A DNA stretch of 64,000 bases from Squalus acanthias (taxonomy: Eukaryota): the NCBI GenBank assembly GCA_030390025.1, contig CM059431.1:107634001-107698000 (forward strand), in the 5' to 3' direction. The notes under the pieces were generated by a model that worked only from the letters and a program-made list of their open reading frames with translations, had not been told where the DNA came from and searched no databases. The position numbers and the translations under genes are program-made. This document shows, one piece after another, positions 14,700-54,678 of this stretch (the first letter of the stretch is position 1; each line of letters starts with the position of its first letter).

Positions 14700-15354
14700 G
14701 GGGGAGAAATTTGGTTGGTTAGCCCCTCCCGTTAGCTCCTCCGGGGGGCAATAACGGGACGCTAACGACTTACCGCCCGGGTGCGGCGGAAAATAACAAC
14801 TCCCGCGAAATTCACCTGGAGTTCTGCGACAGCGGTAACCGCTAGTGCCACGATCTCCTGCGCCCAGAGATCGTGACGTCATCATCCTGCGCATCGCCCT
14901 GGACCCACAATTTGGGCGACAACACCGACAGCTGCAGGAGGTGTTGCGTTGTTGGTGAGTCCGGGCGCTTGGGGGAACGCTGTTTAAAGGGGATGATGGT
15001 TGTGGCGGGGGGGGAATTTTTTTTTCGTGAAGCCTAACGTCCATTTTTCATTATTTTCTTGGGCCGCAATCGATCAGCCCTGCACTCTGCTAACGTGCTT
15101 GGGGCTGATCGTGTCAGATCGCGGCTGCCGTCGGCGACGAGGTACCTCTTTTCATTGCAGAGCCTACAGCGATGGCCCTTCCCTTTAAGGGAGGGAAGGA
15201 GCCTTCGTTCCCGACAGCGCTGCCCTCGACTTCCTTCCTTCCTGGAGCGTTAACAGCCAATTTTGTGCAACCGGAGAATCATAGGGCCTGGCGCTAATTT
15301 TTAAGGTTTTCAAAATTTACCGCCCCAAACGGGGCGATACCGAATTTCTCCCCC
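14700..15354. mobile_element. Harbinger MITE (GGGGGAGAAATT family)
   Basis: Perfect 12-bp TIR GGGGGAGAAATT; flanks aat/att; subterminal sequence resembles the ends of the autonomous element at 38933-43258. Confidence 0.8.
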
Positions 15355-30745: not shown

Positions 30746-33124
30746 CCATATATTATATGAGCATTTCTGCATTTATAATGGAAAGATTCTAAATCTTCGA
30801 GTTTCGTAGGCTCCAGGCCCAACTGTTTGGCCGTCCCTATTTTATAATGCCCAGGGTGACGGTTAAAATATGACATAGCTGATCATACTCAGAAGTCGAT
30901 GTGGACACTGAAGTGCACAGATGCCTCATAGGCACCAAACAAAGTTAACATAATGTGAAGCAACTGGAATAGGTGCAAAACCATGCTCGATCTTAACAAC
31001 CCACTGAAGGAGTATCAGAGTAGAATTCTGTCTTGAATGGTAGCTTTGAATGTTTTAAATTCCGCCTGATTTTCATTTCCACATGTAAAATGAGCTGTCG
31101 ATTCACTATCACCCGTTTCATCCTACAGGCCAGGATGAATTTCTAGCCCATTATCTCGGATGACCAGCGGGGACAGGTAAACGTAGGGTCTGATTAAACA
31201 TCTGGCGGGATTGTCGATCTCCTACATCTTTGAAAATTGACATGCCTCTCTTGGTACTCGTAGACTGAACACCTGCTCCTTTGGAGCTCAGGATGGGTAC
31301 AACTGCGGGGTGGGGGGGGGGGGGGGGCGGGGGGTTAATTTCCATGGGAGTTCTCCCAATCATTGGCTGTGACTTCGGTGGAAGAACCGTGGAAATGCCT
31401 TGAAGATAAGGCATACATTGTGTCGTTCCTCCAGGGATTCCACAGATATTGCACTGAGGTTACAATGGACGATTAAGAGAACCCTTGTGGAAATTGAACC
31501 CCTGTGTTTCATGTGAGGAATAAAGAAGTTAAAAAAAAAACGAGACATGTTATTAGAAATCGGGTAATGTCAATACAGTTGTACTTCTGTTTACAGGTCA
31601 ATATGAACTGGCATTTTCTCTCTGTTTATCATTGGTACTCAGGTCGAACATTTTTATATTGGTAAAAATAATAGTTCCCAGAAGGTCTGACCAGTGGAAA
31701 TGCAAGAACCAGTCACATGCTGTTTTGGAGTATCAGCCATAGGCAGAGAATGAATTTGCTGTTTCAGGTGCCATATGTAAGACTTTAGTTTATACCTTTT
31801 TTTATTTTACAGGGGGAAATTCTTTCAGAAAATGTTTTGCTCTGTAGATCCTGTTATTTCAATTTTGTAAGTTTGACTAAATATTAAAAGTTTGTTTGTG
31901 TAGTTTATTCTGTAAAATAAGGTAGAATGGTTTGCATCTTCAGTTTCCAAATCAAAAAAAAAGTTTAATATGTAGCACCCACACCTTAATGTTTCAAGTG
32001 AATGGATAATAGTTTCTCAACAACGTTTGTAGTTATTCCTCAGACTCAGAACAACTGAATCTAATTGTTGCAATACTACACTTGGATACACGCCACAAAA
32101 AAACTATTCCATAAAGTCCTCTAGAAAATGATTTCCTAGAAATTGGAGTTCCGCAGCCATGCAAGAGATTGGAACAGAAATCTATGTGCTTTGGGACAAT
32201 GACAACAGTGCTTTTGGAGAATTGGAAAAGTAACCATAATTTTGGAATCACTTTGAAGGATGGTCCATCAGTAAAACATTGGAAGATCAATGAAATAAGC
32301 TTAATTATCAATGCACTTTACCATTGCCGCACAGCATTGTCTGTTCCAGGAACGCAAAGATCTGTTAACTCTGCTAGATGCAACTCCGTCCTTTATTGAA
32401 AGAAAACAGTGGAAATTATATAACTTATTTTCAGAGTGTTTGTTTTAAGCTCATCAGCTTGAGGTTTTGTTAGTACTAAGGAATAGAATTCTTCTCACTT
32501 TCAGGACCCACTGTCAGAAGCAAGTAGTCCTAGATCAACTATAGCACTGTCAGATACAGAGCTTAGAATAGTTCCCTCTACTCTGTCCTCAGCAATGTCT
32601 CTCAGTCCCATCCTCAGGAGAGCATCCTCTACTGTACCAGTGAACATTTGTCCCCCATTTGAGATTGCTAATTAGTAGTACGTTAGGCAAGGTATTGTGC
32701 TGTAAGTCCATGCCCACTAGGGATTGGACTGAGACTGCTCAAACTCATCATATATGGCCCTTATAGCTACGATGGCAATCATCATTCTGGATTTGAACAC
32801 TGCTCCAAGAGAAACAAAGATAAAAGAATGACTTGCTCATTTGACAACCTCATGAACACCCAAAGCGCTTTAGAACCAATGAAGTACATTTAAAGTGTAG
32901 TCACTGTTGTAATGTAGGAAAAGCGACAGCCAATTGTGCACAGCAAGCTCCCACGAATAAAAATGTGATATTGACCAGATCATCTTCTTTTTATGATGTT
33001 GATTGGGGTATAAGTATTGGCCAGGATGAAAGCTCAGTGTCTAACCCAATGCATTAGTTCTCCAAATAATTCTGAACCAAAGAAATTGGATCACCATACC
33101 TTAAGTACCTGGAGAAATATGATA

Positions 33125-34490
33125 AAAAGAAAGACTTGCAATTATATGGCGGATTTCACGACCACCGGCGGTCTCAAAGGGGGAAAAATTCAGTTGGTTG
33201 CGCCTCCCGTTAGCGCCTTAAGAGGGCGCTAATGGGGCACAAAGCATCTAGCGCCCGGGCGTGGCGATGTTTGCGCCGCTCGCGAAATTAACTAGACATT
33301 TTGCGGCGGCGCTAAGCACTACCGCCACGATCTCCTGCGCCGGCAGATCGTGACGTCAGTCGAGTGCGCAACGCCCCGGTAGTGCCCCGGAGCGGATATT
33401 GAGTGGCGCCCCCTGCCTTACCACCTGCCGCTAGCAACGACAGGTTGAGGGGAGCATTTTGCAGTCAGGAAGGGACTGGGGGAAGCGCTATTTAAAGGCG
33501 ACTGCTTCCTGCCTTTTATTGTTGGTGACATTTTTGAACCACGCATTCTGAGAGAGAGAGAGAGAGACTTCTGGAGAGATTCAACGCTGTGTGAAGGAGT
33601 TTTGGGGACTGAGCAGCACTTTGCAGGTTCATTTTGATTTGCCCTTCCTTGTATCGATTTAGAAGAGACTGTGGGGGCTGCACTCTGAGCTCTTTCCCTG
33701 GTACTCTCCATTGTTCTTTCCAGCAGATTTGATGTGCAGGTCTCTCCAGGCCGAGATTCAAGGCTGCAATGAGCAGGAGGTGGATGGAAAGCAAGATCAA
33801 CCCTCCCCTTTAAGAACTGGCCGGCGCCATTGTGTCTGTGTTCCATTGCTGACTGACATCACATGAGCTTCGTCAGCGCTCTGAGGTAGCGCCTCATTTC
33901 TCGGCCTTTGCGCCTTAAGACAGGTGTGAAGCACCTGATTTAGCGCTCCAATCACCTCCAGGGGCGATAAAAGTCAAGTTTGAAGTCGGTGGTGATAATT
34001 AGCGCCAGGCGCTAATCTTTGCGCCCGACCAATAATTGCGCCCCAAATGGGGCGATACTGAATTTCTCCCCAAAGTGCTTTACAGCCAATGAAGTACTTT
34101 TGAAGTGGAGTCACTGCTGTAATGTAGGAAATGCAGCCACCAATTTGCACGCACAAAGGTCCCACAAACAGCAATATGAGAATAACCAGATAATCTGTTT
34201 TTGTTATGTTGGTTGAGGGAAAATTATTGGCCAGGACATTGGGGATAACTCCCCTGCTCTTCTTCGAAATAGTGCCATGGGATCTTTTACGCCCACCTGA
34301 GAGAGCAAACGGGGCCTCAGTTTAATATCTCATCCGAAAGACGGTACTTCTGACAGTGCAGCACTCCCTCGGTACTGCACTGAAGTGTCAACCTAGCTTT
34401 ATGTGCTCAAGTCCCTGGCGTGGGACTTGAACCCACAACCTTCATAGACTCAGAGGCGAGTGTGCTACCCACTGAGCCACAGCTGACACT
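33125..34490 (-). mobile_element. SINE, SacSINE1-like, interrupted by a Harbinger derivative
   Basis: Uninterrupted paralog at 49650-50120. Confidence 0.85.
33179..34071. mobile_element. Non-autonomous derivative of the Harbinger at 38933-43258, opposite orientation
   Basis: The first ~250 bp match the reverse complement of the 43258 end and the last ~345 bp match the reverse complement of 38933-39267; TSD AAA/AAA is confirmed by the empty site near 49700. Confidence 0.9.
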
Positions 34491-34524
34491 AATGATGCAG
34501 GGAAATCTACATTTTAAATACATT

Positions 34525-35815
34525 AGCCCAAAAATTGCTCTCAAAATAATGGTGAGGCTAATGGCACTCGCCATTATTTAAGTGCAAATGCCACAGCAAT
34601 TTCAAACGAGGGCAGATGTGAGGTTGCTGTCTGGGAAATGCCGCTCCGCTGTTAGCTTCGCGAAAAAAGCATCTCGCTGTCTGGCTCCCCATTGAAATGC
34701 ATTGAACGGTGTGACGTTGCTGTATTTGCGGGGTGGATAAGAACTAAACTCGGCACGGAAAGTTAAGTCAAGTCATTTCAAGTCTAAGTACCCTTTTAAA
34801 AATGTGATAAGTGTTAATTACTGAAAGCGAACCTCTCTGGCACCGAAAATTAACTATTACAAGAGTGAAGTCTCATTTCTTCAGGTTTTAGTTGTTGTTC
34901 AAGAGTTTTTTTTTAATTAACTTTTTTTAAACTTTTTCTTTGTACCTTTTTTCTCTCTCCCTTAATCCAATCTTTCTTTACCTCTCTTTATTTCTCTTTC
35001 TGTACCTGATTTGACATTGAATTCATCACTCTATTTAAGGAAGGATATACTTGCATTGGAGGCAGTTCAGAGAAGGTTCATGAGGTTGATTCCGGAGATG
35101 AAGGGGTTGTCTTATGAAGAAAGGTTGAGCTGGTTGGGCCTATACTCATTGGAGTTTAGAAGAATGAGAGGGGATCTTATTGAAACATATAAGATTCTGA
35201 AGGAGCTTGACAGGGTAGATGCAGAGAGGATGTTTCCCCTCGTGGGGGAATCTAGAACTAGGGGGCATAATTTCAGAATAAGGGGGCACCCATTTAAAAT
35301 GGAAATGAGGAAGAATTTCTTCTCTCAGAGGGTCGTGAATCTTTGGAATTCTCTTCCCCCGAGAGCTGTGGAGGCTCGGTCATTGAATATATTTAAGGTG
35401 GAGATAGACAGATTTTTGAAAGGTAAGGGAATCAAGGGTTATGGGGAACGGGCAGGGAAGTGGAGTTGAGGCCAAGTTCAGATCAGACATGATCTTATTG
35501 AATGGCGGAGCAGGCTCGAGGGGCCAAATGACCTACTCCTGCTCCTACGTCTTATGTTCTATGTTCTAATTTACACTTCCTGGTTCAGACTCTAAGCTGT
35601 TAGTTAATGATTCTTCAGTCTGATTGGTTAAGGAGATGCACAGTTGCTTACCCTCTTCACTCAAGTCCCAGAGGCCCTGTAGAGGGCGCCGCTTTGTTTC
35701 CATCGCCCACTGACAGCAACTTGCAGCACAAAATACCATGGAGATTAACCAGGCAAGGGCAAGTCTAACTAACAGTGGGCGCCATTCGTTGACCGGTTAC
35801 AGGAATTTTTGAGCC
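34525..35815. mobile_element. Harbinger-like MITE containing a CR1 insertion
   Basis: Ends AGCCCAAAAATTGC / GGAATTTTTGAGCC, flanks att/aat; paralog at 50155-51469. Confidence 0.6.
35025..35566 (+). mobile_element. CR1 LINE 3' fragment
   Basis: ORF 35011-35469 YLRKDILALEAVQRRF...GERAGKWS plus 3' UTR and tail. Confidence 0.9.
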
Positions 35816-36403
35816 AATGAGTATCGTATTCTTTAAAATAAATCATATATGTGTTGGAAGTCTTATGTTCCTTTATGGTCATCCCAATATCCCAATTGTT
35901 GAACTGTTATCATATCCCAAAGAGCTGCAGGTAAGTCTGTTTTGCTGAGCAGACTGCCAGATCATGGTGTAACAAGAGTGCTGGTTGGAAAGGCAAATTC
36001 TTTGTTAAATTGCAGTAAGTTCATGACATTCATCAAATGTCTGTGCAAAGAACCACAAATGTTTCAACTGCAACCAGCATTACTAATGATGGCCCATAAC
36101 TGAGAGTACAATTAGCTAGTCAGAAGCTGCACCTAGTGTTGTCATAAAATCTAATAACTGAAAGCACTAAAAACCAAGATATTAGCAAATATTATGGTGT
36201 CACTCAGTAAAGTGAAACAGCAGAACATCTGCTGCAAAGTTACTTTGTGGAATAATATTTCAATCAGGCACAAGGGCCAGAAAGACTGTAATAAGTTTAG
36301 TCAATCATCAATGCCAAAGGCTATTTCTTCAATAACTCTAAGCCACTTATGTATATGGTTATAATCTTATCTGGTTACAACTCATTTGTTCTATAGCTAG
36401 TAT

Positions 36404-37175
36404 GGGCTGGATTTTCAATGACCTGTGGAGTCGGGTTTGGAGGCGTGTGGGGGGTTAAAGTTGCGGGGTCGGGGGTCCTGACCCCATCCCGACTCCATCC
36501 CGCCTCCACGCAATTTTGACAAAATCGGTCACGGAGTTCCCGACTCCGTCCCGCCTCCAAGAGGCGGGAGAGGCCATTAAAGTCCTTAACAAGCCCTAAA
36601 TTGGCTCTGTAATGTCATTTTGAAACATTTTAGCTAGTTTAACCCTTTTCCGACGTGAAGTACGCCTGATGTGAAACACGCCAGTGAAACCTGGCGGGAG
36701 CACAAGTGGATAGCTGACTATCAGCTGCAGGTCCACTATTACAGCGGAGATGTGATGAAGGTAGTAGTAGTATTGTGATGGGTAGTAGTATTAGATCGGA
36801 AAGTCGCCTCTGATGCTGCTGCATTGTCTTCAGAGACTGCCGCCTTGCTGTGAGAGGCCCTGGATGGAACAAAATTCTTTTTGTTTTTCTCTCTCTCCCT
36901 CTCTCTCTCTCTCCTCCCCCAGCTCATTTTGCATCCAGGTCCCCTCACAGCAAATGCCAAACAATCTGTGATACCAGGCAGCCTGCAATGATGACATCAT
37001 CAGAGGCGACTTTCCCACTGAAACCACTAATTGGTTCATGGGTTCCCACATGCTGGAACTCAATTGCCCAATTAAGTGAAAATTGCATCATTCATCCACA
37101 TTAATCTGGAGTCGGGGGACAACACGAAATGCAGGGTAACACGACCCCAACCCGACCCAAGACAAAATCGAGCCC
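36404..37175. mobile_element. Harbinger-like MITE (GGGCTGGATTTT family)
   Basis: tat|GGGCTGGATTTT ... AAAATCGAGCCC; reverse-complement homolog of 12686-13336 and 44595-45355. Confidence 0.8.
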
Positions 37176-39288
37176 ATGGGGGCTGATTGTCATCCTGGGC
37201 ACTATGCCTTTGGAACTTTGATGGGCTGGCTCTTCAATCCACCCTATCCCTTCGCCCTTGACCCTTGCCAATTTACCAGGGTCAGGGTCATTTGAATAGT
37301 TGGGTAGGTTTCATGGCAGTATTCCCGCCTGCCTTGGTGAGGCCAGTTTGGGGAAGGGAGGGAAATTATTGTTGTCAGCCTCAGGAGCCTATAGCAGCAT
37401 AGCTTGTCTGTCATCCATGGTTCAGTTGGTAGCAGTCTTGCCTCTGAAACATGGGCACAAAAATCTAGGCCGATACTCCAGCGCAGTATTGAGGGAGTGC
37501 TACATTGTTGGAGGTGCCGTCTTTCAGATGAGACATTAAACCGAGGTCTCATCTGCTCTTGAAGGGATAATTACAAGTCCTAGCCCTTTTCGGGCTACCC
37601 CAGATCAGGCGTATTCCCCAGACGTTCACCTTCAACTAAAGTTAGCGGTAGCCGAATCCTAGAGACACTTAATTGGGTCGAAAGGTTCAGACTATCTGTC
37701 GCTAAAGGAAAGAAACGGCCTGAAGTTGTTACCATCCTCCGGATAGCACTTTTAACAAGTTTAACTAGACTGTAACCTTCCGGAGATTATGAGGGTCCGG
37801 AAAACCCCCCAGAATTCTGCAACTCCTTACAAAAGAGTGCACAGTAATTGAGTTCGCGAGAGTGTAACAGAAATACTATTTGAGACTATTCTAAAAATAT
37901 ATAGATTTATTAAAGAACCAACATTTAGTTAACAGCTGGTATGGCAATCGCAACTTTAACCATTCAAAATACAAATAGCTTACATTTCTTATCAGAGATC
38001 CTTATTCTCAAATCTTAACTTCGTTACATTTCCACACTTCTACTTATTTCTTAATCCAGAATATCCACCAAAATCAAATACCTTGATTACCTGAGACTCA
38101 GAGTTGTAGGCCTACAGAATGGTTCTGAAGGCGAGAATTGCTCAGCCCCTTCCCAGTGACTTCTGTTTTCTCATTTGAAAAGCTCTTATTTTTATATTCT
38201 TTTTTAGTGGTATATTCTTTGAAGTTTTCTTTGATGTAAGCTAATTGTCTCTAGTGATACTCCATTGAATTCCTTTCTATTCTTACTGTCATTTCAGCTG
38301 CCAACTTTTAGAATTCTGTCTCTACTTTAGGTGTTTCAAAAGCTATCATAAAATGGTTATTAGAGATTTATCTTTTGATGCTATTCTTAGCAAGTCTTTC
38401 TATTGAATTCTTAATATCACTTAACTGCTTGTAAGCCAGAAGTTGTGACTCCGTGGTGTTCCAAGTTCAATACAAACACAATGTAATTGCTTGGTGTCAT
38501 CTATTGATATTATATCTTCAATGCCTCTCTGTAGGTATCTTTTACAATTTGTAAATTGAAAACACTTCTCTTTGGGTGTTTACTTGTTTTCTTGCTATCT
38601 CAATTGGTTGCATATTTAATCGTGTTTCCTGTCTTATTTGATGTTACTTTATGAAGGCATATGGTTGTTTAATGTTCTAAGTTTCTGTTTCCCTGAGTGT
38701 TAGCTTATAACACTTTACTTGGGTCATTCCATTGTGTTTCTCCCAAACTCCAGACCTTCTGGAAGCGCCAATGGTTTGCTTCAATAGGGGCATTGTTTTT
38801 GTGTTTACAACCATCTCCCACTTCAAAGCATGTGGTGTTTTACAGCTTTTGTCAACACTTCACCTTATCTCAGAAGCCTGTATTGTGTTTGCAGCATGTG
38901 TCGCCAAGGCTTTCCAGACTTTTAAACTCATTGGGGGAAAAATTAGGTCGCACCCCGTTTGGGGCGCAAATATCGTCTGGACGCAAATATTAGCGCCTGG
39001 CGCTAATTATCGCCACTGACTGGAAACTTCACTTTTACCGCCCGGGAGGTGAGTGGAGCGCTAAATCAGGCACTGCACACCTGTCTTAGGCGCAAAGGCC
39101 GAGCAGTGAGGCGCTAACTCAGCACGCGAGCGCAGCGCAGGTGCTGCCAGTTAGCGAGGGAACACAGACACACTGGCGCCGGCCAGTTCTTAAAGCGGGG
39201 GGGACCAACTTGCTCCCCAGCCACACCCTGCTCATTGCAGCCTTGAATCTCGGCCTGGAGAGACCTGTAATCCATTTTGCTGCCAAGG

Positions 39289-41270
39289 ATGGAGAGGGTG
39301 AGAGAACGAGCTCATCGCTTCACCGAGCGGGCCTTGGATGCTCTGGTTGGCGCGGTGGAGCGCAGAAGATGTATACTCTTCCCTGAGAGTGGCAGGAGGC
39401 CTTTGCCACGCGAGTACAGAAGAGTGTGGAGGGAGGTGGCTCAGAGCGTCTCCTCCAGGAGCATGGTGCCCAGGACCCATGTTCAATGCCGCAAAAAGTT
39501 CAACGACCTCACTCGGGTCGTCAGGGTGAGTGGCTTTTTCTCAATACCTCTCCATCCCTCCATCTCAACCTCACTCTATGTCCAGAGGGTCTTAAAACCC
39601 CAATGCACAACACTCATCCAACACCTATGGCCCTTTCATGAAACACACACACACATTCCACACTTTGCATACAGTAAGGGCTATTCACCTATGGGAGGCA
39701 CATCAGGCAAGACCATGGCTGTATAGAGTAAGGGCTATTCACCTATGGGAGGCACATCAGGCAAGACCATGGCTGTATACAGTAAGGGCTATTCACCTAT
39801 GGAAGGCACATCAGGCAAGACCATGGCTGTATACAGTAAGGGCTATTCACCTATGGGAGGCACATCAGGCAAGACCATGGCTGCATACAGTAAGGGCTAT
39901 TCACCTATGGGAGGCACATCAGGCAAGACCATGGCTGTATATTTACTCAGATGCTGTCCTTTTTCTTGCAGGCCAAGCTGGCGTATAATCGGAGACATCA
40001 GCAACGGACAGGTGGAGGGCGGCCTCAGCTGCAACCCCTCAGCGATCTTGAGGAGCGCGTCCACAGGATTGTGGCAAGCCGGGTGATCGGTCCCGTCACC
40101 ACTGGAGACGCCGACCCCGTTCTGGACAGCAATGGTAAGGTCATCACCTTTTTGTCCTCTGTCCTTCCACTTGTCCCTCACAACACCAGCCTTTGACACT
40201 TTCAATCCAACTTGCTAACTTGCTGCACTTATTCCTCCCTTACTGCCACCCTGTCCTCACGCTAAAGCCAATCTTGTACCTCCCTGCTTTCAGATGGTGA
40301 TTCACCAGCTGAGGAGACGGGCCCTGAAGCTGCCAGTGGGAGTGAAGCTGCAGCCGAGGAGGAAGAGGAAGCCGGAGCATCAGTGCCACCCTCTCCCGAG
40401 GAAGCCCATGCCCACACTGGGAACACGCCTTCCCTGGAGGGGAGCAGGGGGGAAGGGTCTGATGAGGGTGAAGCTCCAGGACCCAGCGGGCTGCAGCAAT
40501 GCCATGGGGGTAGGGAAGAACGGGGGCCTTCTCCACAGAGGGAGAGTAGGCCAGAGACTCCTACTGCAATGGACGGAGAGGAGGAGCGGCTGATATCAGA
40601 AATGAACACCCAGGCGGTGGGCATGCACACTGAGCTCATGGGTGCAGTGGGAAGGGTGCCCGAATGCATTGAGTCACTGGCAAGGAGTGTGGAGCACTTC
40701 GCTGTAGCACAGGCGGATGCCACACTAACGCTTAGTGCTGCAATTCAGTCACTGACTGCCGTGATCCCATCTCTGACTGCTCTCATGCAGACTCAGATTG
40801 AGGCCACGCGAGCACTGACTGCTGCCAACCTCGATGGTTCGTTCACATGTCCCCGGGGCTCTCACCGTGCCGCAGCAGGCCAGCAATCTGTGCTCCAGCA
40901 GATTGCTCCGGATGCTGAAGTGCTGCCCCGTGGGAGTGCCAGTGTGTCGGGCGAGCAGAGAGTTGCTGTCCTCTCTCACGATGACAGCATTCCTGCTGCC
41001 AACACTGTCACTTCTCCACTGCACTTGCCACCGCCTGTAGGACAGACTGCTGCCGCCCATGCAGAGTTGGTGCAGTCTGCAGCCGGGCCCTCCAGGCCCA
41101 GAACTGGTCGAGGCCGTCCTTCAGGGGCATCTGCAGTGTCAGGGTCTGACGATCAGCAGCCTTCCACCAGCCTTGCTGCAGCCACTGAGGTCCCATTACG
41201 GAGGAGCAGTAGGGTTAGAAGGGGGGAAGTGCGCAAGGGAAGGAGATCACCCTCGAAGGGCAAAAAGTAG
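39289..41270 (+). CDS. Harbinger Myb/SANT-like (trihelix) DNA-binding protein; exons 39289-39525, 39972-40134, 40294-41270; 458 aa
   Basis: Exon 1 RAHRFTERALDALVGAVERRRCILF...W.EVA..VS......RT..QCRKKFNDL is a Myb/SANT-like fold; donors GTGAGT (39526) and GTAAGG (40135); acceptors TTGCAG (39971) and TTTCAG (40293); phases 0 and 1 join in frame (1377 nt); exon 2 has RTGGG; basic NLS-like C-terminus. Confidence 0.85.
39668..39941. repeat. Minisatellite, 5 x 54 bp, in intron 1 of the Myb/SANT gene
   Basis: Unit ACAGTAAGGGCTATTCACCTATGGGAGGCACATCAGGCAAGACCATGGCTGTAT starts at 39671, 39725, 39779, 39833 and 39887. Confidence 0.92.
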
Positions 41271-41546
41271 GAGGTGTGACAAAATGCTGGTCATTTTTTT
41301 ATTAAATGCCGAGGTTCGTGGTCCAACTTTTGTCTAGTGTTTTGGACATTATCTCCAGGTTGTGAGAACCAGTTATGTTAATGACTGTTTTTTTGTGTTT
41401 ATTTCTATGAGTTTGTCATGAGGAAATGACACACACAGAGTTTGTAAAATAAATAAGTTTTTGTATTCAAAATATACATGTTTGGTGTTTGGAATCATTG
41501 GTGCCTTGGCCGGCTTAGGGGTTGCATGCTGGGTTCATTGATGTTG

Positions 41547-42743
41547 TTAGCAATGGCAGAAGCCATTTCCACAGCAGGGGTCCGAGAAGCGGCATGCTAT
41601 CAGCCGTTGACGGACGGCCCTTGCAGTTTCACCATTGTGGGCCGCCCTCCCGCCTTGGTGCTGCTGATGATCATCCTCCTCGTCCTCTTCCTCCTCTTCC
41701 TCCTCCTCCTCTGGTGGTGCTCCAAGGCCTGGTGGCATTGGCTGGGTCCTGACGATTGCCATGTTATGCAACATGCAGCACACAACTACGAAGTTGGATA
41801 CTCGCTCAGGCGAGTACTGCAGGGCTCCTCCAGAATGGTCGAGACAGCAGAACCGTTGCTTCAGCACGCCGATTGTGCACTCAATGATGTTCCTGGTAGC
41901 TTGATGGCTCTCATTGTACCGCAGCTCAGCAGGGGTGTTGGGCGTACGGAGCGGTGTCATCAGCCAGGTGCTCAATGGATACCCCTTGTCCCCGAGAAGC
42001 CAACCAACTGGCTGATGCGGTGCCTCGAAAAGTTCTGCCACAGTAGTCTGGCGCAGGATAAAAGCATCGTGGCAGCTGCCAGGATAGTGGGCATTGACAG
42101 CGAGTATCAGCTGTCTGTGGTCACAGTCCAACTGAACATTCAAAGAATGGAACCCCTTTCTGTTCCGGAATTCCTCAGCATTCTCATGTGGAGCACGCAA
42201 AGCCACATGCGTGCAGTCAATGGCGCCCTGCACCATGGGGAAGCCCGCTATCCTCGCAAAGCCCAGAGCGCGGTCACGCTGCTTGTCTGGGGTCATGGGG
42301 AAAGAGATGAACTCTCGTCTCCTTTTAAAGAGGGCATTTGTGACCTGCCGGATGCAGCAATGCACCGCGAACTGGGAGATATTGGCGAGGTCCCCAGCAG
42401 CAGCTTGAAATGAGCCAGTAGCATAGAAGTTGAGAGCCACTGTGACCTTCACTGCCACCGACAGAGACATCCTGGACCTCAGTTGAGGCTGCAGATCTGG
42501 CTGCAGCAGGTGACAGAGCTCAGTGACCACCTCCTTGCTGAATCGCAGCCTTCGCAAACACAGCTCCTCAGACATATGAATGTAGGAGAGCTGTTCACGA
42601 TATACCCTGGGAGGGTAAGCTCTCCTGTACATACGCCTGTTGGCCCTCCTCCGTCTGGCCATCATTGCCACTCTCTCTCTGCGTCTCTGTGTCCTCCGAT
42701 TCAGCTGGAGCAGGACGACGCCCCCAATCAGTGCAGCCCCCAT
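41547..42743 (-). CDS. Harbinger DDE transposase (HARBI1-like, DDE_Tnp_4 family), 398 aa from the first ATG
   Basis: Open, intronless; HTH region (VALNFYATGSFQ...ISQ), GAIDCTH, NRKGFHSLNVQ, YPGSCHD, LLGDKGYPL, YNESH..TRNIIE, CCMLHN; catalytic D-D-E present. Confidence 0.93.
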   Translation of the reverse strand: MGAALIGGVVLLQLNRRTQRRRERVAMMARRRRANRRMYRRAYPPRVYREQLSYIHMSEELCLRRLRFSKEVVTELCHLLQPDLQPQLRSRMSLSVAVKVTVALNFYATGSFQAAAGDLANISQFAVHCCIRQVTNALFKRRREFISFPMTPDKQRDRALGFARIAGFPMVQGAIDCTHVALRAPHENAEEFRNRKGFHSLNVQLDCDHRQLILAVNAHYPGSCHDAFILRQTTVAELFEAPHQPVGWLLGDKGYPLSTWLMTPLRTPNTPAELRYNESHQATRNIIECTIGVLKQRFCCLDHSGGALQYSPERVSNFVVVCCMLHNMAIVRTQPMPPGLGAPPEEEEEEEEEDEEDDHQQHQGGRAAHNGETARAVRQRLIACRFSDPCCGNGFCHC

Positions 42744-44594
42744 AGTCTCTTTGCAAGGAAAGTTATGAAGGACAGCAACCAAAGTACTAGCGAAGTTAGG
42801 ATCAGTAGGCAAAACTACCTCACACAGCGTTGACTCAATGCAGAAGTCTCTCTTTCTCTCTCTCCGAATCTCTCTCTCTCTCTCAGAACGAGTGGTGCAA
42901 AAATGTCAACCACAGAAAAAGACAGGAAGAGGCCCCCTTTAAATAGCGCCCCCCCCCCCCAGCCCCACAGCGATTGATAGCGTTCCAGTCTTCCGGTCGT
43001 TGGATGCGCCAGGCGGTAAGGCAGGGGGCGCCACTCAATTTCCGCTCCGGGGCGCCACAGGGGCGTTGCACCATGGAATGACGTCACAATCTGCGCGCAC
43101 AGGTGGTCGCAGCAGTAAGGTTTAGAGTCGCCGCACAATGTCTAGTTAAGTTCCCGAGCAGCGCAAACATCGCTGCGCCCGGGCACTAGCGGCTTTGCGC
43201 CCCATTAGCACCCTCTTAAGGCGCTAACGGGAGGCGCAACCAACTGAATTTTTACCCCAGTATGTCTTGTATTAATAATATCAAAATCTGTTCATAGGAT
43301 GATGTATTTCTTGGAATATGGCTATTTCCTTCACACGCTCTCAAGTGGATGTAAAAGATCCCATGGCACTATTTCAAAGAAGAGCAGGGGAGTTCTCCCC
43401 AGTGTCCTGGCCAATATTTATCCCTCAATTAACATCACTGAAACAGATTATCCGGTCATTATCACATTGCTCTTTGTGGGAGCTTGCTGTGCGCAAATTG
43501 GCTGTCACGTTTCCTACATTACAACAGTGACTCCACTTCAAAAAAAGTACTTCATTGGCTGTAAAGCACTTTGGGACATCCTGATGCCGTGAAAGGCGCT
43601 ATAGAAATGTAAATCTTTCTTTCTTTTAAAAAAAATGTGACATTGGTATTACAATCAATTACACTCCATTGGGCCCTTTACAATTTAAACCCCACTTTCC
43701 ATGCCATAGAAATGCGGAATGCCAGGATGACGTGGCATTCAGCGTTGCTATAGATCCAGTGATGAAAAATTCATCGTTGGACTATTGCAGTCATTTTTAC
43801 CTCATTATAATCAACGCATTAAAAAAAAATAATCTTCACACAGTTAAGTTGGTGGCAATGTTGAAGTGTGGATTTTCCCTGTAGCTGATTGACATGCATA
43901 CTGTTTTCTTCATGGACTGAGTCCATTTTATATCGGCACAGAGTCCAGTAGTAGAGTAATGGTGAAGTAACGTATACTACCCGTGTGACGACTAAACGGT
44001 GCAAACAACATTTTGTGACTTAACAGTAATGATAGAAAATATAGAAATTAGCCAATCAGTAATTTCTAACAGCAATAGTTTGATCGACACTACCCCTTAG
44101 GCACCATTTTTTAATTTTTTAAATCAACATATATAATCTTAAAATTAAACAAATGAGTGAATTCAATAATTTTTTATTGATGAAGATGGTCAAATGTTGA
44201 AAATCTCTTTTTTGGAAGAAAATATATGAACCCAAGTGCCATTCCTTTCCTTTAAGCCGTGGCATAGTGTATGGAAACACTGTTTTCACTTGGCTGTGAA
44301 TCCTGAACAGACAGAGAGGATGAATGGGATGTTAAGGCACCTAATGGCTTAAGCAGCCTCAATCTTGATGGCCATGACTCCATACCCATACAATGCCCAT
44401 AATTCTGTGTTGAATGATATTATTTAAGCATCCTCACTCAATCAGTGACAAGGAAGTAGACACAACACACTGAAGAATTTAGTAGTACTCCGTTGCCTGC
44501 AAAGCGCTTTGGGACGTCCTGAGGTCGAGAAAGGTGCTATATAAATGCAAGTTCTTTCTTTCTAGTGTGGCAGCAGGTAAGTTAATGACTTTAT

Positions 44595-45355
44595 GGCCTG
44601 GATTTTGTCTTGGGGTCGGGTTGGGGTCGTGTAATCCGCATTTTGTGTTTCCCCCCCGACTCCAGATTAATGTGGATGAATGATGCAATGTTCACTTAAT
44701 TGGGCAATTGAGTTCCAGCATGTGGGAACCCATGAACCAATTAGTGGTTTCAGTCTGAAAGTCGCCTCTGATGATGTCATCATTGCTGCTGCCTGGTCTC
44801 AGAGACTGTTGGTGAGAGAGGACCTGCCTGGCTTGCTTTTGATGTGAGTGGACCTGGATGCAAAATATGGGCGAGGGGGGTGGGGGGGGGAGAGGAGAGA
44901 GAGAGAGAGAATTTTTTTTGCATCCAAGTCCTCTCACGGCAAAGGCCAGGCAGTCTCTGAACACATTCAATGCAGCAGCGGCGACTTTCAGACCTAATAC
45001 TACTACTACCTTCATCACATCTCCGTTGTAATAGTGGACCTGCAGCTGATAGTCAGCTATCCACTTGTGCTCCCGCCAGGTTTCACTGGAGTGTTTCACA
45101 CCAGGCGTACTTCACGTCAGAAAAGGGTTAAACTAGCTAAAACGTTTCAAAATGGCATTACAGAGCCAGTTAAGGGCTTTAATGGCCTCTCCCGCCTCTT
45201 GGAGGCGGGACGGAGTCGGGAACCCCGTGACTGATTTTGTCAAAATTGCGTGGAGGCGGGATGGAGTCAGGATGGGGTCGGAAACCCCGACCCCGCAAAT
45301 TTAACCCCCCACACGCCTCCAAACCCGACTCCATGGGTCATTCAAAATCCAGCCC
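44595..45355. mobile_element. Harbinger-like MITE (GGGCTGGATTTT family), present only in duplication copy A
   Basis: tat|GGCCTGGATTTT...AAAATCCAGCCC|taa; empty site GACTT-TAT-ATCTCTGGG near 55944. Confidence 0.85.
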
Positions 45356-45569
45356 TAAATCTCTGGGATGTCAATTCAAATGGAGTCCAGAATGATGGGT
45401 TAAAAATTTCCTCAGCATGGCTGTGAAGATTTGTGGCACCCAATTTTCCATCTATTTAAATGAATGATTTACTCCTAAATTGGCAATGCTACTCGGAATA
45501 GTTTAGGAAATAGAAACAATGTCACACTGGGTCAAGAGCGAAGTTCCACATCTGATATTAGCAGGGGTC

Positions 45570-47780
45570 CATCTCACCCCTCCAAGTGCTGACCCTGTGG
45601 TTACTGGCAGTGGATCAGCCATCACCGACCCTCTCCGCATCTCCCTCCAGAATGTCCGTTCACTTGCGAACAAGGCCCTTGCCATCCATGAGCTTATCGT
45701 GGATGATTGGATCGACATCATGGCCATGATGGAAACTTGGCTGAGGGGTGATGACATCTTACCCTTAAATGAAGCCTTCTCGCCTACTACTTGCCCCGCC
45801 CAGACCGCCGTGGTGGCGGTGTGGCTCTCATCACCAAATCACACCTTAGTCTATTCCCCTACTCCTCTGGCACATTCTCCTCCTTTGCGTATCTCACCTT
45901 GTTACACCCCTTTCACCTCTCTTTTAAAATTTTCGTTCTCTACCTCCCACCCAAGTACGATAAAAATGTTATCACCGAGATATCTTCACTGCATTCCTCC
46001 CTCAGCCTCTGCACCGAGTGACTTCTCATCCTCGGTGATTTCAACCTCCATCTCAATTCATCATGCTCTCTCTCCTTTGAGTTCACTACCCTCCTATCCT
46101 TCCTTAATCTCTCTCTCCATGTGGACTCCCCAACCCATATTCATGGCCACCCCCTTGACCTTGCCATCTCTCGTGGCCTCGCTACTCCCAACATGTCAAT
46201 CGCAGATAAGGCCATCTCTGACCACTTCCTTGAATCGCGCTCCACCCACAAACCTCTTCCCCCACCCAACCCTACTTCTTTGTGTGTCTGCCCCTGGAAA
46301 AAACTCTCTCCCAACTCTCTTACAACCGCACTTGCAAAATCCCAACTGTCCAGCCTTTGGCCCTCCATTCACCATAACATTTCTGCAGCTTCCGATCTGC
46401 TCAACCACACCCTCTCCACCACCTTTGATGCCCTAGTCCCTATTAAAACGATTACTCTCTCTCACCCTGACTGTTCCCCCAGTACGGCCCTCATCTTCAT
46501 CCCCTTAAGTCCAAGGGACGCAGACTTGAACGGATATGATGGACAACTGGTTTAGCCATTCACCGCCAAATCTGGCTGGACCACATAAAGCATTATCGGG
46601 GCCTACTCTTGTCTGCCAAAATTGCTCACTATTCCAGGATCATTCTGGAATGCAAATCTAACCCCCGGCCTCTATTCTCTACTGCTAACCATCTTGTTAA
46701 ACCCCTCTCCCCTGTCTCCTCCACACTCACCTCCAAAAACTAGTGCGAAGAGTTCATGGACTTCTTTGTCTCTAAGATTGAGACCATCCGTTCAGCTGCC
46801 TCTGCCACTTCCCTTCCTTCCCCTAGCCCACCGGGCCAAAATTCCTCTAAGGCTCCCCCCTGCCCTAGCCCTGAATTCACATCAATCTCCAGTTTCTCTC
46901 TGATCTCCCCTGTTCATCTCTCCATGCTCATCTTGTCCATGAGACCCACTTCCTGCTCCCTCGATCCTATTCCTGCTAAACTGCTGACCACCCAACTTCC
47001 TTTTCTGGCTCCCATGTTAGCTGACATTGTTAACGGTTCTCTCACCTCAGGTACTGTCCTCTCCTTCAAATCTGCTGTCATCACCCCTCTCCTCAAAAAA
47101 ACAACCCTTAACCCCACCGTCCTTGCAAACTACCGCCCCACCTCCAACCTCCATTTCCTCTCCAAATCCTTGAATGTGTTGTAGCCTCCCAAATCTGTGC
47201 CCATCTTTACCGGAACTCCATGTTTGAATCCCTCCAATCCGGTTTCCGCCCTTGCCACAGTACTGAAACAGCTCTCATCAAAGTCACAAATGATATCTTT
47301 TGTGACTGTGACAAAGGTAAACTATCCCTCCTTGTCCTTCTTGACCTGTCTGCTGCCTTTGACATGGTTGACTACTCCATCCTCCTCCAACCCCTCTCCA
47401 CCATCGTCCAGCTGGGTGGGACTGCATTCGCCAGGTTCCATTCTTATCTATCTAATCGTAGCCAGAAAATCACCTGCAATGGCTTCTCTTCCCACTCCCG
47501 CATCATTACCTCTGGCATCTCCCAAGGATCTATCTTTGGCCTCCCTTCTATTTCTCATTGACATGCTGCCCCTTGGTGACATCATCTGAAAACACAGCGT
47601 CAGTTTCCACATGTACGCTGACGATACCCAGCTCTACCTCACTACCACTTCTCTCGACCCCTCCATGGTCTTCAAATTGTCAGACTGCTTGTCTGACATC
47701 CAGTACTGGATGAGCAGAAATTTTCTCCAATTAAATATTGGAAAGACTGAAGCCATTGTCTTCGGTCCCCGCCACAAACT
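45570..47780 (+). mobile_element. L2-clade LINE ORF2 (APE endonuclease + RT), decayed, 3' end cut by another element
   Basis: SLQNVRSL, ETWL, RRGGGVAL, PTHIHGHPLDL, ISDH; QSGFRPCHSTETAL, LLDLSAAFD, YADD; frameshifted. Confidence 0.88.
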
Positions 47781-49545
47781 CGGAGGGGGATTTTTTCGGG
47801 GGGTCAGTGGGCGTGATCGGAGGTGGGTTGGGTGAGAAAAAAATATTTTTGACAGTGGGTCAGGACCCTGCTCTCCACACGACTTTCCCAAATGTCGGGT
47901 CTGTCAATGCTGATCAGACCCGACACAGCGGCGGGGGAGGCAATTCAGGTCATTATGACCTTGTTAACAGACCATTAAGAATAATTTTGAGCTCACCTTC
48001 AGAGTTGAATAAGTCGCCCACGGGTTCTACGCTGCTCGGGGATCACGTCAAGTAATCAAGTCAGGAGTTGTATGACCATGGAATCATCTCGTTACTTGAC
48101 AGTTGCAAATGTGCTATAAAAGCTCCCATCTCACAGCTGTTCACTTTCAAAGCTCAGAAGCTGTTGCTTACTGCATTTGGAAGACAGATTGAGCTTTATG
48201 CAGGTTGCAAGTTTTTGCAGTAAACTCTCTATCCAGTGTCACCTGATTGGAACAACCTCTCTCACCATTGACAGATTGCTTCTGTCATCTCAAGTTCAAC
48301 TGTCATCTATTACATCTATTAAAGGGGCGATCGATAGCTCCGAAAGCTTGTGATTTCAAATAAAACTGTTGGACTATAACCTGGTGTTGTGCGACTTCTC
48401 ATCTATTACATCAGCATCGGTGCCCTTGAAACTATCACAAATTGGTCCTTAGAATTCCACCACGATCAGCCCCAACACCAGCATCACCAGGCACACCAGC
48501 AGCACCAACAACAACACCAAACTTCTCCGCAATCAACTGATGCTGCACAGGACAGAGGGTATAAGCACCCATGCATATTACTGCCCGGGATGCCAGGGAT
48601 GGCCTCACCATGGCCAGATTTACTTCACTTGACACTGCACACCCTGGCTGCCACATGATGTGCCAGGTTGGCACCACCCCACACCAACAGCATAAAGCAT
48701 CCCTACAATGCCCAAGCCATTCCATTCACACTCATCACCATTGCGGGGAGTACCGTTATGTCTCACCATTCACTGCAACTCACTAAGCCACTTACAAAGG
48801 TGCACACAGATCTGTCCAAGAACGCAAAGTGTTCAAAATAAAGGTTTCAATGCTTAACAGGATATTAACAGAAACTTCACATGAACATTGGCTAAAACAC
48901 ACAAGCGCCTACCCTTGTGTGTTGTTAGTTGGTATGATTGGACTAGAATGAGGGTGAGTGTGAGGGGTGGCTAGTGAGATGGGGAAGTGATAATGTAGAT
49001 AGAGAGGGATAGTTGGAGGTGCAAGGTAAGTTGGTGTGAGTAAAGATGTGCAGGAGTAGGGTAGGGAAGGCAGAGTGATGGGGATGTGATGAGTGGCACA
49101 GTAGGATGAGGTTGAGTGTGGCTTTGCAGTAACGCTTCGTGATCTAATGCGAACATTGAAAGGTTTGCGCCACTGCAGCCTGGTCCTCCTGATGACATCC
49201 CTGCTTCTGTCCTCCTGTGCAATGTGCAACCAGGCTGCGTTGATCTCCTGGGGAGGTCTCTTCCGCCCATTGGAAGGGACAAGTACCTCCCTGAGTGCTG
49301 TGACTCCCTCCATAAGCATATGGAGGGAGTCATGGGAGAGCCTTGTGCCGCCCTGCACATCTGTATAGTGCTTGTCAGTGTTTGCAGCATCTAAATGCTG
49401 TAGAACACTGACAGCACAAATGTCAAAATCAATTTGCGCATGGTCCCTTTAAGGAAACTGGCTGATGACTTCATCAAATGACTTCATCAAACCCGCTTCC
49501 TTCAATTGGCTTGCAAACACGCTGGGTGGGCTTAACATGTCCAAT
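47781..49545. mobile_element. Decayed, internally deleted Harbinger of a second family
   Basis: G-rich GGGGGATTTT start; minus-strand Myb/SANT exon at about 49135-49358 (RLSHDSLHMLMEGV..REVLVPSNGRKRP...AWLHIAQE...RRTRLQWRKPFN). Confidence 0.65.
48318..48400. mobile_element. Short Penelope-like fragment, same family as 10601-10764
   Basis: Shares CTGTTGGACTATAACCTGGTGTTGTGCGACTTCTC; flanked by duplicated ATCTATTACATC. Confidence 0.6.
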
Positions 49546-49649
49546 CAGGATGAAAGCTTAGTGTCTAACCCAATGCATTTGTTCTCCAAATAATTCTGAA
49601 CCAAAGAAATTGGATCACCATACCTTACGTACCTGGAGAAATATGATAA

Positions 49650-50120
49650 AAAGAAAGACTTGCATTTATATAGCGGATTTCACGACCACCGGAGGTCTTA
49701 AAGTGCTTTACAGCCAATGAAGTACTTTTGAAGTGGAGTCACTGTTGTAATGTAGGAAATGCAGCCGCCAATTTGCACGCACAAAGGTCCCACAAACAGC
49801 AATGTGATAATAACCAGATAATCTGTTTTTGTTATGTTGGTTGAAGGAAAATTATTGGCCAGGACACTGGGGAGAACTCCCCTGCTCTTCTTTGAAATAG
49901 TGCCATGGGATCTTTTACACCCACCTGAGAGAGCAAACGGGGCCTCGGTTTAACGTCTCATCCGAAAGACGGCACCTCCAACAGTGCAGCACTCCCTCAG
50001 TACTGCACTGAGACTGTCAGCCTAGCTTTATGTGCTCAAGTCCCTGGAGTGGGACTTGAACCCACAACCTTCATAGAACTCGGAGGCGAGTGTGCTACCA
50101 ACTGAGCCACAGCTGACACT
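49650..50120 (-). mobile_element. SINE, SacSINE1-like, full length
   Basis: Head rc GTGTCAGCTGTGGCTCAGTTGGTAGC..GGTTCAAGTCC, core and tail. Confidence 0.88.
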
Positions 50121-50675
50121 AATGATGCAGTGAAATCTACATTTTAAATACATTAGCCCAAAAATTGCTCTCAAAATAATGGTGAGGCTAATGGCACTCG
50201 CCATTATTTAAGTGCAAATGCCACAGCAATTTCAAACGAGGGCAGATGTGAGGTTAAACAAGGAAATCGGGAAGTTGCTGTCTGGGAAATGCCGCTCCGC
50301 TGTTAGCTTTGCGAACAAAGCATCTTGCTGTCTGGCTCCCCATTGAAATGCATTTAACGGTGTGACGTTGCTGTATTTGCGGGGTGGATACGAACTAAAC
50401 TCGGCACGGAAAGTTAAGTCAAGTCATTTCAAGTCTAAGTACCCTTTTAAAAATGTGATAAGTGTTAATTACTGAAAGTGAACCTTCCTGGCACCGAAAA
50501 TTAAGTATTACAAGAGTGGAGTCTCATTTCTTCAGGTTTTAGTTGTTGTTCAAGATTTATTTTTTTAATTAACTTTTTTTAACTTTTTCTTTGTACCTTT
50601 TTTCTCTCTCCCTTAATCCAATCTTTCTTTACCTCTCTTTATTTCTCTTTCTGTACCTGATTTGACATTGAATTC

Positions 50676-52831: not shown

Positions 52832-53215
52832 ATAGGGGCTGATTGTCATCCTGGGCACTATGCCTTTGGAACTTTGATGGGCTGGCTCTTCAATCCACCC
52901 TATCCCTTCGCCCTTGACCCTTGCCAATTTACCAGGGTCAGGGTCATTTGAATAGTTGGGTAGGTTTCATGGCAGTATTCCCGCCTGCCTTGGTGAGGCC
53001 AGTTTGGGGAAGGGTGGGAAATTGTTGTTGTCAGCCTCAGGAGCCAATAGCAGCATAGCTTGTCTGTCATCCATGGTTCAGTTGGTAGCAGTCTTGCCTC
53101 TGAAACTTGGGCACAAAAATCTAGGCCGATACTCCAGCGCAATATTGAGGGAGTGCTACATTGTTGGAGGTGCCGTCTTTCAGATGAGACATTAAACCGA
53201 GGTCCCGTCTGCTCT

Positions 53216-54678
53216 TGAAGGGATAATTACAAGTCCTAGCCCTTTTCGGGCTACCCCAGATCAGGCGTATTCCCCAGACATTCACCTTCAACTAAAGTTA
53301 GCGCTAGCCGAATCCTAGAGATGCTTAATTGGGTCTAAAGGTCAGACTACCTCTCCCTAAAGGAAAGAAACGACCTGAAGATGTTACCGTCCTCTAGATA
53401 GCACTTTTAACAAGTTTAACTAGACTGTAACCTTCCGGAGATTATGAGGGTCCAGAAAATCCTCCAGAATTCTGCAACTCCTTACAAAAGAGTGTACAGA
53501 AATTGAGTTTGCGAGATTGATACAGAAATACTACTTGAGACTATTCTAAAAATATATAGATTTATTAAAGAACCAACATTTAGTTAATAGCTGGTATGGC
53601 AATCGCAACTTTAACCGTTCAAAATACAAATAGCTTACATTTCTTATCAGAGATCCTTATTCTCACATCTTAACTTCGTTACATTTCCACACTTCTACTT
53701 ATTTCTTAATCCAGAATATCCACCAAAATCAAATACCTTGATTATCCGAGACTCAGAGTTGTAGGCCTACAGAATGGTTCTGAAGACGAGAATTGCTCTG
53801 CCCTTTCCCAGCGACTCTGTTTTCTCATTTGAAAAGCTCTTATTTTTATACTCTTTTTTAGTGGTATATTTTTTGAAGTTTTCTTTTGATGTAAGCTAAT
53901 TGTCTCTCGTGATACTCCATTGAATTCCTTTCTATTCTTACTGTCATTTCAGCTGCCAACTTTTAGAATTCTGTCTCTACCTTTAGGTGTTTCAAAAACT
54001 ATCATAAAATGGTTATTAGAGATTTATCTTTTGATGCTATTCTTAGCAAGTCTTTCTATTGAATTCTTAATATCACTTAACTGCTTGTAAGCCTGACGTC
54101 GTGACTCCGTGTTCCAAGTTCAATACAAACACAATGTAATTGCTGTTAGAAATTACCGATTGGCTAATTTCTATTGATATTATATCTTCAAAGCCTCTCT
54201 GTAGGTATCTTTTACAATTTGTAAATTGAAAACACTTCTCTTAGGGTGTTTACTTGTTTTCTTGCTATCTCAATTGGTTGCATATTTAATGGTGTTTCCT
54301 GTCTGATTTGATGTTACTTTATGAAGGCATATGGTTGTTTAATGTTCTAAGTTTCTGTTTCCCTGAGTGTTAGCTTATAACACTTTACTTGGGTCATTCC
54401 ATTGTGTTTCTCCCAAACTCCAGACCTTCTGGAAGCGCCAATGGTTTGCTTCAATAGGGGCATTGTTTTTGTGTTTACAACCATCTCCCATTTCAAAGCT
54501 TGTGGTGTTTTACAGCTTTTGTGTTAACACTTCATCTTATCCCAGAAGCCTGTATTGTATTTGCAGCCTGTGTAGCCAAGGCTTTCCAGACTTTTAAACT
54601 CAGCATATCTTGTATTAATAATATCAAAATCTGTTCATAGGATGATGTATTTCTTGGAATATGGCTATTTCCTTCACA
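53216..54678 (-). mobile_element. Solo LTR, 1463 bp, 4-bp TSD CTCT, inside a SINE
   Basis: SINE ...CCGTCTG-CTCT|TGAAGG...CCTTCACA|CTCT-CTCAAG; minus-strand TATA box and AATAAA. Confidence 0.78.

What the first reader, a model, noticed from the sequence alone, without database searches (positions are those of the whole stretch)
38933..43258. Structurally complete two-gene Harbinger transposon with a hidden spliced Myb/SANT gene
Seen: TIRs, an open 398-aa DDE transposase, and three plus-strand ORF pieces that join through canonical GT-AG sites into one stop-free 458-aa protein (Myb/SANT N-terminus, RTGGG, acidic stretch, predicted coiled coil, basic tail). The duplicated block gives the pre-insertion site, fixing the boundaries. 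Established: PIF/Harbinger elements need both a transposase and a Myb-like partner, and HARBI1/NAIF1 are their domesticated vertebrate relatives. Inference: this is a relatively young shark family, possibly uncatalogued, from which an active consensus could be rebuilt.
Basis: partly seen in the sequence, partly recalled or inferred. Interest (0 to 1): 0.75.

Follow-up and report, generated by a model that had tools for sequence, protein, structure and literature searches.

The report
Worn full-length shark Harbinger transposon
This is a complete two-gene cut-and-paste jumping gene of a known kind, in what is likely a shark or ray genome; its family makes spliced RNA-type sequence, but this copy carries its own mutations that likely weaken the cutting enzyme, so it is an ordinary new family member rather than a new system.

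Summary
Confirmed and ordinary. 38933-43258 is a 4,326-bp PIF/Harbinger element: 12-bp GGGG termini, a minus-strand DDE_Tnp_4 transposase with D176/D252/E288 intact, and a convergent three-exon Myb/SANT gene (458 aa). An empty paralogous site at 54602-54604 fixes the ends. Junction 40134^40294 appears in 5 of 5 RNA-guess contig runs and 0 of 2 DNA runs. Junction 39525^39972 was not listed in any run but is supported by homologs (61 of 73 align across it). Corrections: the 398 aa is likely a stop-loss in this copy (other copies stop after F386). The copy also carries V206D in a core strand (D in 1 of 115 homologs), T92M, R289C and R299C, so it is probably impaired. It differs from the laid contigs at 0.5-0.65% or more of sites, so the family is young and multi-copy. 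Harbingers in sharks are already in print at superfamily level. The closest deposited transposase is 66% identical; Repbase and Dfam could not be searched. The scan found the same kind of element many times elsewhere in this genome. One lead remains: the target duplication differs at its centre (ATT/AGT, empty site AGC), which fits donor-base carry-over or a later mutation.

The parts
38933..43258 (.). Full-length PIF/Harbinger element (E1), 4,326 bp
   Evidence: TIRs and empty paralogous site
38933..38944 (+). Left terminal inverted repeat
   Evidence: 11 of 12 bases match the right end
43247..43258 (-). Right terminal inverted repeat
38930..38932 (+). Left copy of the 3-bp target duplication (ATT)
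   Evidence: differs from the right copy at the central base
43259..43261 (+). Right copy of the 3-bp target duplication (AGT)
54602..54604 (+). Empty paralogous site (AGC) in the second copy of the local duplication
   Evidence: a joint skipping the element is also seen in contigs of runs X12 and X15
38963..39116 (.). Five subterminal GGCGCWA motifs, candidate Myb binding sites (inferred)
43195..43239 (.). Three subterminal GGCGCWA motifs at the right end, candidate Myb binding sites (inferred)
39289..39525 (+). Myb gene exon 1 (Myb/SANT domain, 79 codons)
   Evidence: Myb_DNA-bind_5 E=7.9e-10; 73 homologs
39526..39971 (+). Intron 1, containing 5.1 copies of a 54-bp tandem repeat (39669-39941)
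   Evidence: GT-AG and homolog collinearity; spliced form not listed in RNA-guess contigs
39972..40134 (+). Myb gene exon 2 (contains RTGGG)
40135..40293 (+). Intron 2
   Evidence: spliced joint in 5 of 5 RNA-guess contig runs, 0 of 2 DNA runs
40294..41270 (+). Myb gene exon 3: acidic stretch, heptad-patterned helical segment, basic tail, stop
   Evidence: collinear with homolog P0125 over residues 5-455 at 38%
41271..41546 (.). Spacer between the convergent genes, with candidate poly(A) hexamers on both strands
   Evidence: not tested
41547..42743 (-). DDE transposase; 398 aa in this copy, 386 aa in other copies (stop codon at 41585-41583); D176, D252, E288
33179..34071 (-). E2: related 893-bp non-autonomous element (75-81% identical to both ends of E1), perfect AAA duplication, empty site at 49700-49702
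14700..15354 (-). E3: more distant 655-bp non-autonomous relative, flanks AAT/ATT

Best explanation
This is a full-length two-gene PIF/Harbinger DNA transposon with matching ends, a DDE transposase gene and a three-exon Myb/SANT gene, from a young multi-copy family in what is likely a shark or ray, and this copy is likely impaired and drifting. Shown: the anatomy, the boundaries, the intron-2 splice joint in family contigs, and the changes peculiar to this copy. Inferred from Harbinger3_DR and Ping/Pong: the Myb protein binds repeated subterminal motifs (candidate GGCGCWA), binds the transposase and brings it to the nucleus and the ends; the transposase cuts the 3-bp flanks in a stagger, the element is excised and inserted at a new site with a 3-bp duplication. 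The same proteins would mobilise deletion derivatives such as E2. Inferred history: it inserted into one copy of the local duplication after the duplication arose, and has since gathered unselected changes (stop-loss, V206D and others).
For: Pfam matches for both genes. TIRs and empty site. Intron-2 joint with GT..AG ends in X8, X12, X15, X11 and X16 (5 of 5 RNA-guess contig runs, two studies, two organism labels) and in neither DNA run X1 or X6. Junction 1: 61 of 73 Myb homologs align across it, 51 without a gap; only 2 of 73 extend along the unspliced frame. Multi-copy: 5,932 contigs of run X1 lie on a 1,241-bp part. Private changes: 22 sites where all depth in all three runs shows another letter and 6 more at 88% or above, among the 40 of 246 rows shown. 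Of those in coding sequence 14 change the protein and 2 are silent. D at position 206 in 1 of 115 homologs against V in 86, inside strand 199-207 of the model. 39 of 120 homologs end at position 387 and the last helix ends at 386. Duplicate copies differ at 189 of 6,753 sites (2.8%, about 1.4% per copy), more than the 0.5-0.65% minimum seen for the element. Mechanism by analogy: passages of PMC2836001, PMC9710019, PMC4561436.
Against: Against impairment: the catalytic triad is intact and the copy departs from consensus at 0 of 89 columns conserved in 80% or more of homologs, while all of the 40 top homologs depart at 1-17. No activity assay exists. The laid runs may be other species or individuals, so 'private' means absent from those contigs. 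Against the full gene model: junction 1 is not among the joints listed (complete table; 15 of 21 rows shown), and RNA-guess contigs read through donor 1 unspliced. Four of the five intron-2 joints have under 30 letters on the short side; only X15 has 41. The run type is a guess. The divergence figure is a lower bound, and precise excision from the paralog would leave the same empty site.
Confidence: 0.88

Rival explanations
1. This copy is itself a fully competent autonomous element; its private changes are tolerated.
For: Both frames open, triad intact, 0 of 89 highly conserved columns altered; model pLDDT 88.7.
Against: V206D in a core strand where 111 of 115 homologs have V, L, I, M or A; stop-loss adding 12 low-confidence residues; 14 protein-changing against 2 silent changes; imperfect TSD, which lowered mPing transposition in yeast (PMC4561436).
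Confidence: 0.3
2. The empty paralog is a precise excision site rather than a pre-insertion site, so the element is older than the duplication.
For: Harbinger excision is usually precise (PMC2836001); three TIR elements are present in copy 1 and absent from copy 2.
Against: The element's minimum divergence (0.5-0.65%) is below the 1.4% per copy since duplication; three separate precise excisions would be needed; the empty form also occurs in runs of two organism labels.
Confidence: 0.08
3. A domesticated gene pair of the HARBI1/NAIF1 type kept for a host function.
For: Both frames open; transcripts of the family appear to be spliced; database relatives are named HARBI1.
Against: TIRs and TSD retained, empty paralog, many divergent copies, mostly protein-changing private changes.
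Confidence: 0.02

Closest known systems
Harbinger3_DR of zebrafish (= NuwaI-2_DRer in PMC4482050, supplement row seen; Sinzelle et al. 2008 not read, known through passages of PMC2836001, PMC9710019, PMC9392472)
   Same: About 4.2 kb, 12-bp TIR, DDE_Tnp_4 transposase plus Myb_DNA-bind_5 partner; similar core motifs by eye; repeated subterminal motif.
   Different: TSD is CWG there and ATT/AGT, AAA, AAT/ATT here; proteins of 343 and 221 aa there against 386 and 458 aa here; no tree was built.
'Putative nuclease HARBI1' of Pristiophorus japonicus (P0001) and other shark and ray annotations
   Same: 66% identity over 88% of the transposase, E=4e-160.
   Different: Annotated as host proteins, not as a transposon family; at 66% it is a different family.
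Ping/Pong/mPing of rice (PMC2836001, PMC4561436, PMC11254759; passages read)
   Same: Two-protein system, 3-bp TSD, non-autonomous derivatives; staggered cut in the TSD with donor bases carried on the element.
   Different: TTA/TAA target, plant lineage, activity shown; none shown here.
HARBI1, NAIF1, MSANTD1-4 (PMC9392472, passages read)
   Same: Derived from Harbinger transposase or Myb genes; present in cartilaginous fishes.
   Different: Single-locus host genes; this element keeps TIRs, TSD and many copies.

Membership tests
PIF/Harbinger superfamily (broad sense) | DDE_Tnp_4-type transposase with DDE triad | tested here: met
   E=2.7e-37; D176, D252, E288 in conserved columns
PIF/Harbinger superfamily (broad sense) | Separate second gene with a Myb/SANT domain | tested here: met
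   intron-2 joint
PIF/Harbinger superfamily (broad sense) | Short terminal inverted repeats | tested here: met
   11 of 12 bases
PIF/Harbinger superfamily (broad sense) | 3-bp target-site duplication | tested here: met
   Three extra bases against the empty paralog for E1 (imperfect) and E2 (perfect AAA)
PIF/Harbinger superfamily (broad sense) | Both proteins needed for transposition; Myb binds ends and transposase | not testable with these tools
   Needs cell and binding assays
PIF/Harbinger group in the strict sense of Han et al. 2015 | TSD 5'-TWA-3' | tested here: not met
   ATT/AGT, AAA, AAT/ATT at three sites; definition
NuwaI group (Han et al. 2015) | TSD 5'-CWG-3' | tested here: not met
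   definition
NuwaI group (Han et al. 2015) | GGG termini, two ORFs with Myb/SANT, about 4.4 kb, animal host | tested here: met
NuwaI group (Han et al. 2015) | Transposase falls in the Nuwa clade | not tested
   No tree with reference transposases was built
Pangu group (Han et al. 2015) | TSD 5'-ANT-3' | tested here: inconclusive
   E1 and E3 flanks fit, E2 (AAA) does not; three sites only
Pangu group (Han et al. 2015) | Second ORF without a known motif | tested here: not met
   Second ORF has Myb/SANT
Domesticated HARBI1/NAIF1-type genes | Single copy, no TIRs, fixed locus | tested here: not met
An already catalogued Repbase or Dfam family | Near-identical consensus on record | not testable with these tools
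   No such library; best deposited protein 66%

The most novel reading that the evidence does not exclude
This shark Harbinger family carries its three donor-site bases along when it jumps and pastes them against a tolerant target, so a target duplication can be born mismatched at its centre. E1 would be a polarised case: the empty paralog shows G at the centre, the right copy keeps G, and the left copy has T from the previous site. Such mismatches would record donor-to-target jumps, and a young, spliced, multi-species family would allow this to be tested in a vertebrate.
Probability: 0.25. Interest if true: 0.5.

Novelty: new member of a known kind. Interest (0 to 1): 0.2.

Why it matters
PMC9179366 found no Harbingers in elephant shark and asked for other cartilaginous fishes to be examined. 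This element gives a worked anatomy for an elasmobranch family: ends, spliced Myb gene, candidate binding motif, non-TWA and non-CWG target. A young family is a practical starting point for a second vertebrate Harbinger transposition system beside the reconstructed zebrafish one, and no Harbinger transposase structure turned up in the PDB by sequence or fold. The gain is incremental: the superfamily, its mechanism and its presence in sharks are known.

Tried and rejected
No whole genome is held for this window, so copy number, a family alignment and TSD statistics could not be made. A scan of metagenome contigs for the right-end pattern found 0 matches. No listed holder run is on record as RNA; the one raw RNA run, X21 from another organism label, covered only a CT microsatellite and is uninformative. 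The complex prediction of transposase 1-386 with residues 85-215 of the exon-3 product gave no answer (score 0.00) and is not used either way. PDB searches by sequence and by fold gave nothing at E<=0.001; weak rows were integrases, piggyBac and TnsB. A search for longer Myb homologs by shared words gave only 1 hit; the HMMER library search gave 73. Look-ups of earlier findings by sequence returned nothing, so I could not confirm that the earlier 4.29-4.32-kb elements are this same family. A TIR extended by a terminal T/A was considered and rejected because E2 and the empty sites do not fit it. The 318-aa plus-strand frame at 41457-42413 is the antisense of the transposase and was not pursued. 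Horizontal transfer was considered because seven organism labels hold 48-77% of the words, but the labels are coded and their kinship is unknown, so no claim is made. Contig depth was not used to rank exons. Literature searches listed no paper describing an elasmobranch Harbinger family in detail or centre-mismatched Harbinger TSDs; subscription journals, Repbase Reports and unseen supplements may hold one.
Full report
Observation. The element spans 38933-43258. Its ends match at 11 of 12 and 13 of 16 terminal bases. The minus strand holds an open frame from ATG 42743 to stop 41547 (398 aa) that matches DDE_Tnp_4 at E=2.7e-37, with D176, D252 and E288 in conserved columns. On the plus strand three pieces (39289-39525, 39972-40134, 40294-41270) join through GT-AG sites into 458 aa without an internal stop; skipping exon 2 or retaining either intron stops early. 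Exon 1 matches Myb_DNA-bind_5 at E=7.9e-10. The tail holds 12 K/R in 25 residues, and residues 230-312 show a heptad pattern (79% hydrophobic at a/d in the best register). The genes are convergent.

Boundaries. The block 33022-45772 is duplicated at 49546-56360, with 189 mismatches in 6,753 aligned bases once the inserted elements are left out. The paralog has a single triplet (AGC, 54602-54604) where copy 1 has ATT, the element, then AGT. The duplication is therefore 3 bp and imperfect at the central base. A related 893-bp non-autonomous element (E2, 33179-34071, 75-81% identical to E1's ends) has a perfect AAA duplication and its own empty site at 49700-49702. A more distant relative (E3, 14700-15354) has AAT/ATT flanks.

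Gene model. The joint 40134^40294 with GT..AG ends occurs in contigs of 5 of 5 runs guessed to be RNA (X8, X12, X15; X11, X16; two studies, two organism labels) and in 0 of 2 DNA runs (X1, read to about 55%, and X6). The short side is 19-29 letters in four runs and 41 in X15. The raw RNA run X21, from another organism label, did not cover the element. The joint 39525^39972 was not listed: the table is complete, that shows 15 of 21 rows, and contigs reading through donor 1 unspliced are present. Its support is indirect. Of 73 Myb homologs, 61 align across it, 51 without a gap, and only 2 extend along the unspliced frame. Its donor is the best of 76 GT sites and its acceptor the best of 143 AG sites on a crude score. 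One homolog, P0125, aligns over residues 5-455 at 38%. Many of these homologs are themselves gene predictions.

Family and age. Twenty runs hold the element or part of it; seven organism labels hold 48-77% of its sampled words. Run X1 puts 5,932 contigs on a 1,241-bp part. Among the 40 of 246 difference rows shown, 22 inside the element have the other letter at full depth in all three runs and 6 more at 88% or above. That is 0.5-0.65% of 4,326 bases, a lower bound, and below the 1.4% per copy since the duplication. This fits insertion after the duplication. The 76 best transposase hits are all named from sharks and rays, the best at 66%, so the host is inferred to be an elasmobranch.

State of this copy. 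Of those differences 16 fall in coding sequence: 14 change the protein and 2 are silent. In the transposase they are T92M, V206D, R289C, R299C, S384C and loss of the stop at codon 387. Homologs agree on polarity: D at 206 in 1 of 115 (V in 86), M at 92 in 1 of 108, C at 289 in 0 of 116, C at 299 in 12 of 115; 39 of 120 end at position 387. In the model (pLDDT 88.7) residue 206 lies in strand 199-207 and the last long helix ends at 386. So the family transposase is likely 386 aa and the 398 aa is peculiar to this copy. Against impairment, the copy departs from consensus at 0 of 89 columns conserved in 80% or more of homologs. I put impairment at about 0.6. The runs may be other species, so 'private' means absent from their contigs.

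Mechanism. Shown here: anatomy, ends, one splice joint. Inferred from Harbinger3_DR and Ping/Pong (passages of PMC2836001, PMC9710019 and PMC9392472; Sinzelle et al. 2008 not read): the Myb protein binds subterminal motifs, binds the transposase and brings it to the nucleus, and both are needed. A candidate motif GGCGCWA occurs 8 times in the terminal 500 bases, once in the 3,826 internal bases and 12 times in E2. The motif was chosen after looking; a fairer null (most-shared 6-mer) was reached by 49 of 2,000 shuffles. Passages of PMC4561436 and PMC11254759 report a staggered cut in the TSD and donor bases travelling with mPing. That makes carry-over a possible cause of the ATT/AGT mismatch. 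Later mutation is the simpler cause: at 0.5-1.4% per site the chance of a change at either central base is about 1-3% (my arithmetic), but the paralog itself differs at two of the six bases from the triplet onward, and the window holds only three sites, two of them mismatched at the centre.

Comparison. It is a member of PIF/Harbinger in the broad sense. It fails the TSD tests of the strict PIF/Harbinger (TWA) and NuwaI (CWG) groups of PMC4482050 (passages, part 2 of 4 and supplement rows read), though it resembles NuwaI-2_DRer in size, termini and domains. PMC9179366 (passages) found none in elephant shark and asked for more cartilaginous fishes. PMC8455134 and PMC12498223 (one passage each) list PIF-Harbinger in whale shark and grey reef shark. 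Six searches of the held library listed no detailed description of an elasmobranch family; Repbase, Dfam and subscription papers were out of reach.

Earlier scan notes (unchecked, leads only) report several 4.29-4.32-kb two-gene Harbingers and centre-mismatched TSDs elsewhere in this genome. I could not match them by sequence.

Verdict. A real, well-delimited, ordinary new member of a known superfamily; the copy is probably worn. Interest 0.2. The boldest reading left open is donor-base carry-over at the TSD (probability 0.25, interest 0.5 if true).

Noticed in passing
window 33022-48111 versus 49546-56851: Local direct duplication (2.8% divergent). Copy 1 holds three TIR elements absent from copy 2 (E2, E1 and a 761-bp MITE at 44595-45355); copy 2 lacks 45773-47618 of a LINE-like stretch.
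   Followed up: partly
window 12686-13336, 36404-37175, 44595-45355, 52058-52831: A second MITE family with GGGCTGGATTTT-type ends and TAT flanks: TAT/TAT, TAT/TAA (empty paralog TAT near 55944), and one paralogous pair with TAT on the left and ATG or ATA on the right. Probably Harbinger-type.
   Followed up: partly
window 49155-49343, minus strand: Decayed Myb/SANT fragment, 37% identical to residues 10-72 of the E1 Myb protein, with stops and a frameshift; another Harbinger family.
   Followed up: partly
window 39669-39941: 5.1 copies of a 54-bp unit at 97% identity inside intron 1; copy number may vary among family members.
   Followed up: no
window 23877-23957 and 63261-63303: Short remnants resembling the right subterminal region of E1.
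   Followed up: no
protein P0008 (Pristiophorus japonicus annotation): A 523-aa prediction carrying both Myb_DNA-bind_5 and DDE_Tnp_4; a natural fusion or a gene-model artefact.
   Followed up: no
window 38929, 43262; 33175, 34075; 14696, 15358: In element orientation the base before the TSD is C at all three sites and the base after it is G at two of three, hinting at a palindromic target preference; three sites only.
   Followed up: no
window 45507-46433, 56095-56649, 58138-59517: Long plus-strand frames that look like LINE endonuclease and reverse-transcriptase pieces by eye.
   Followed up: no
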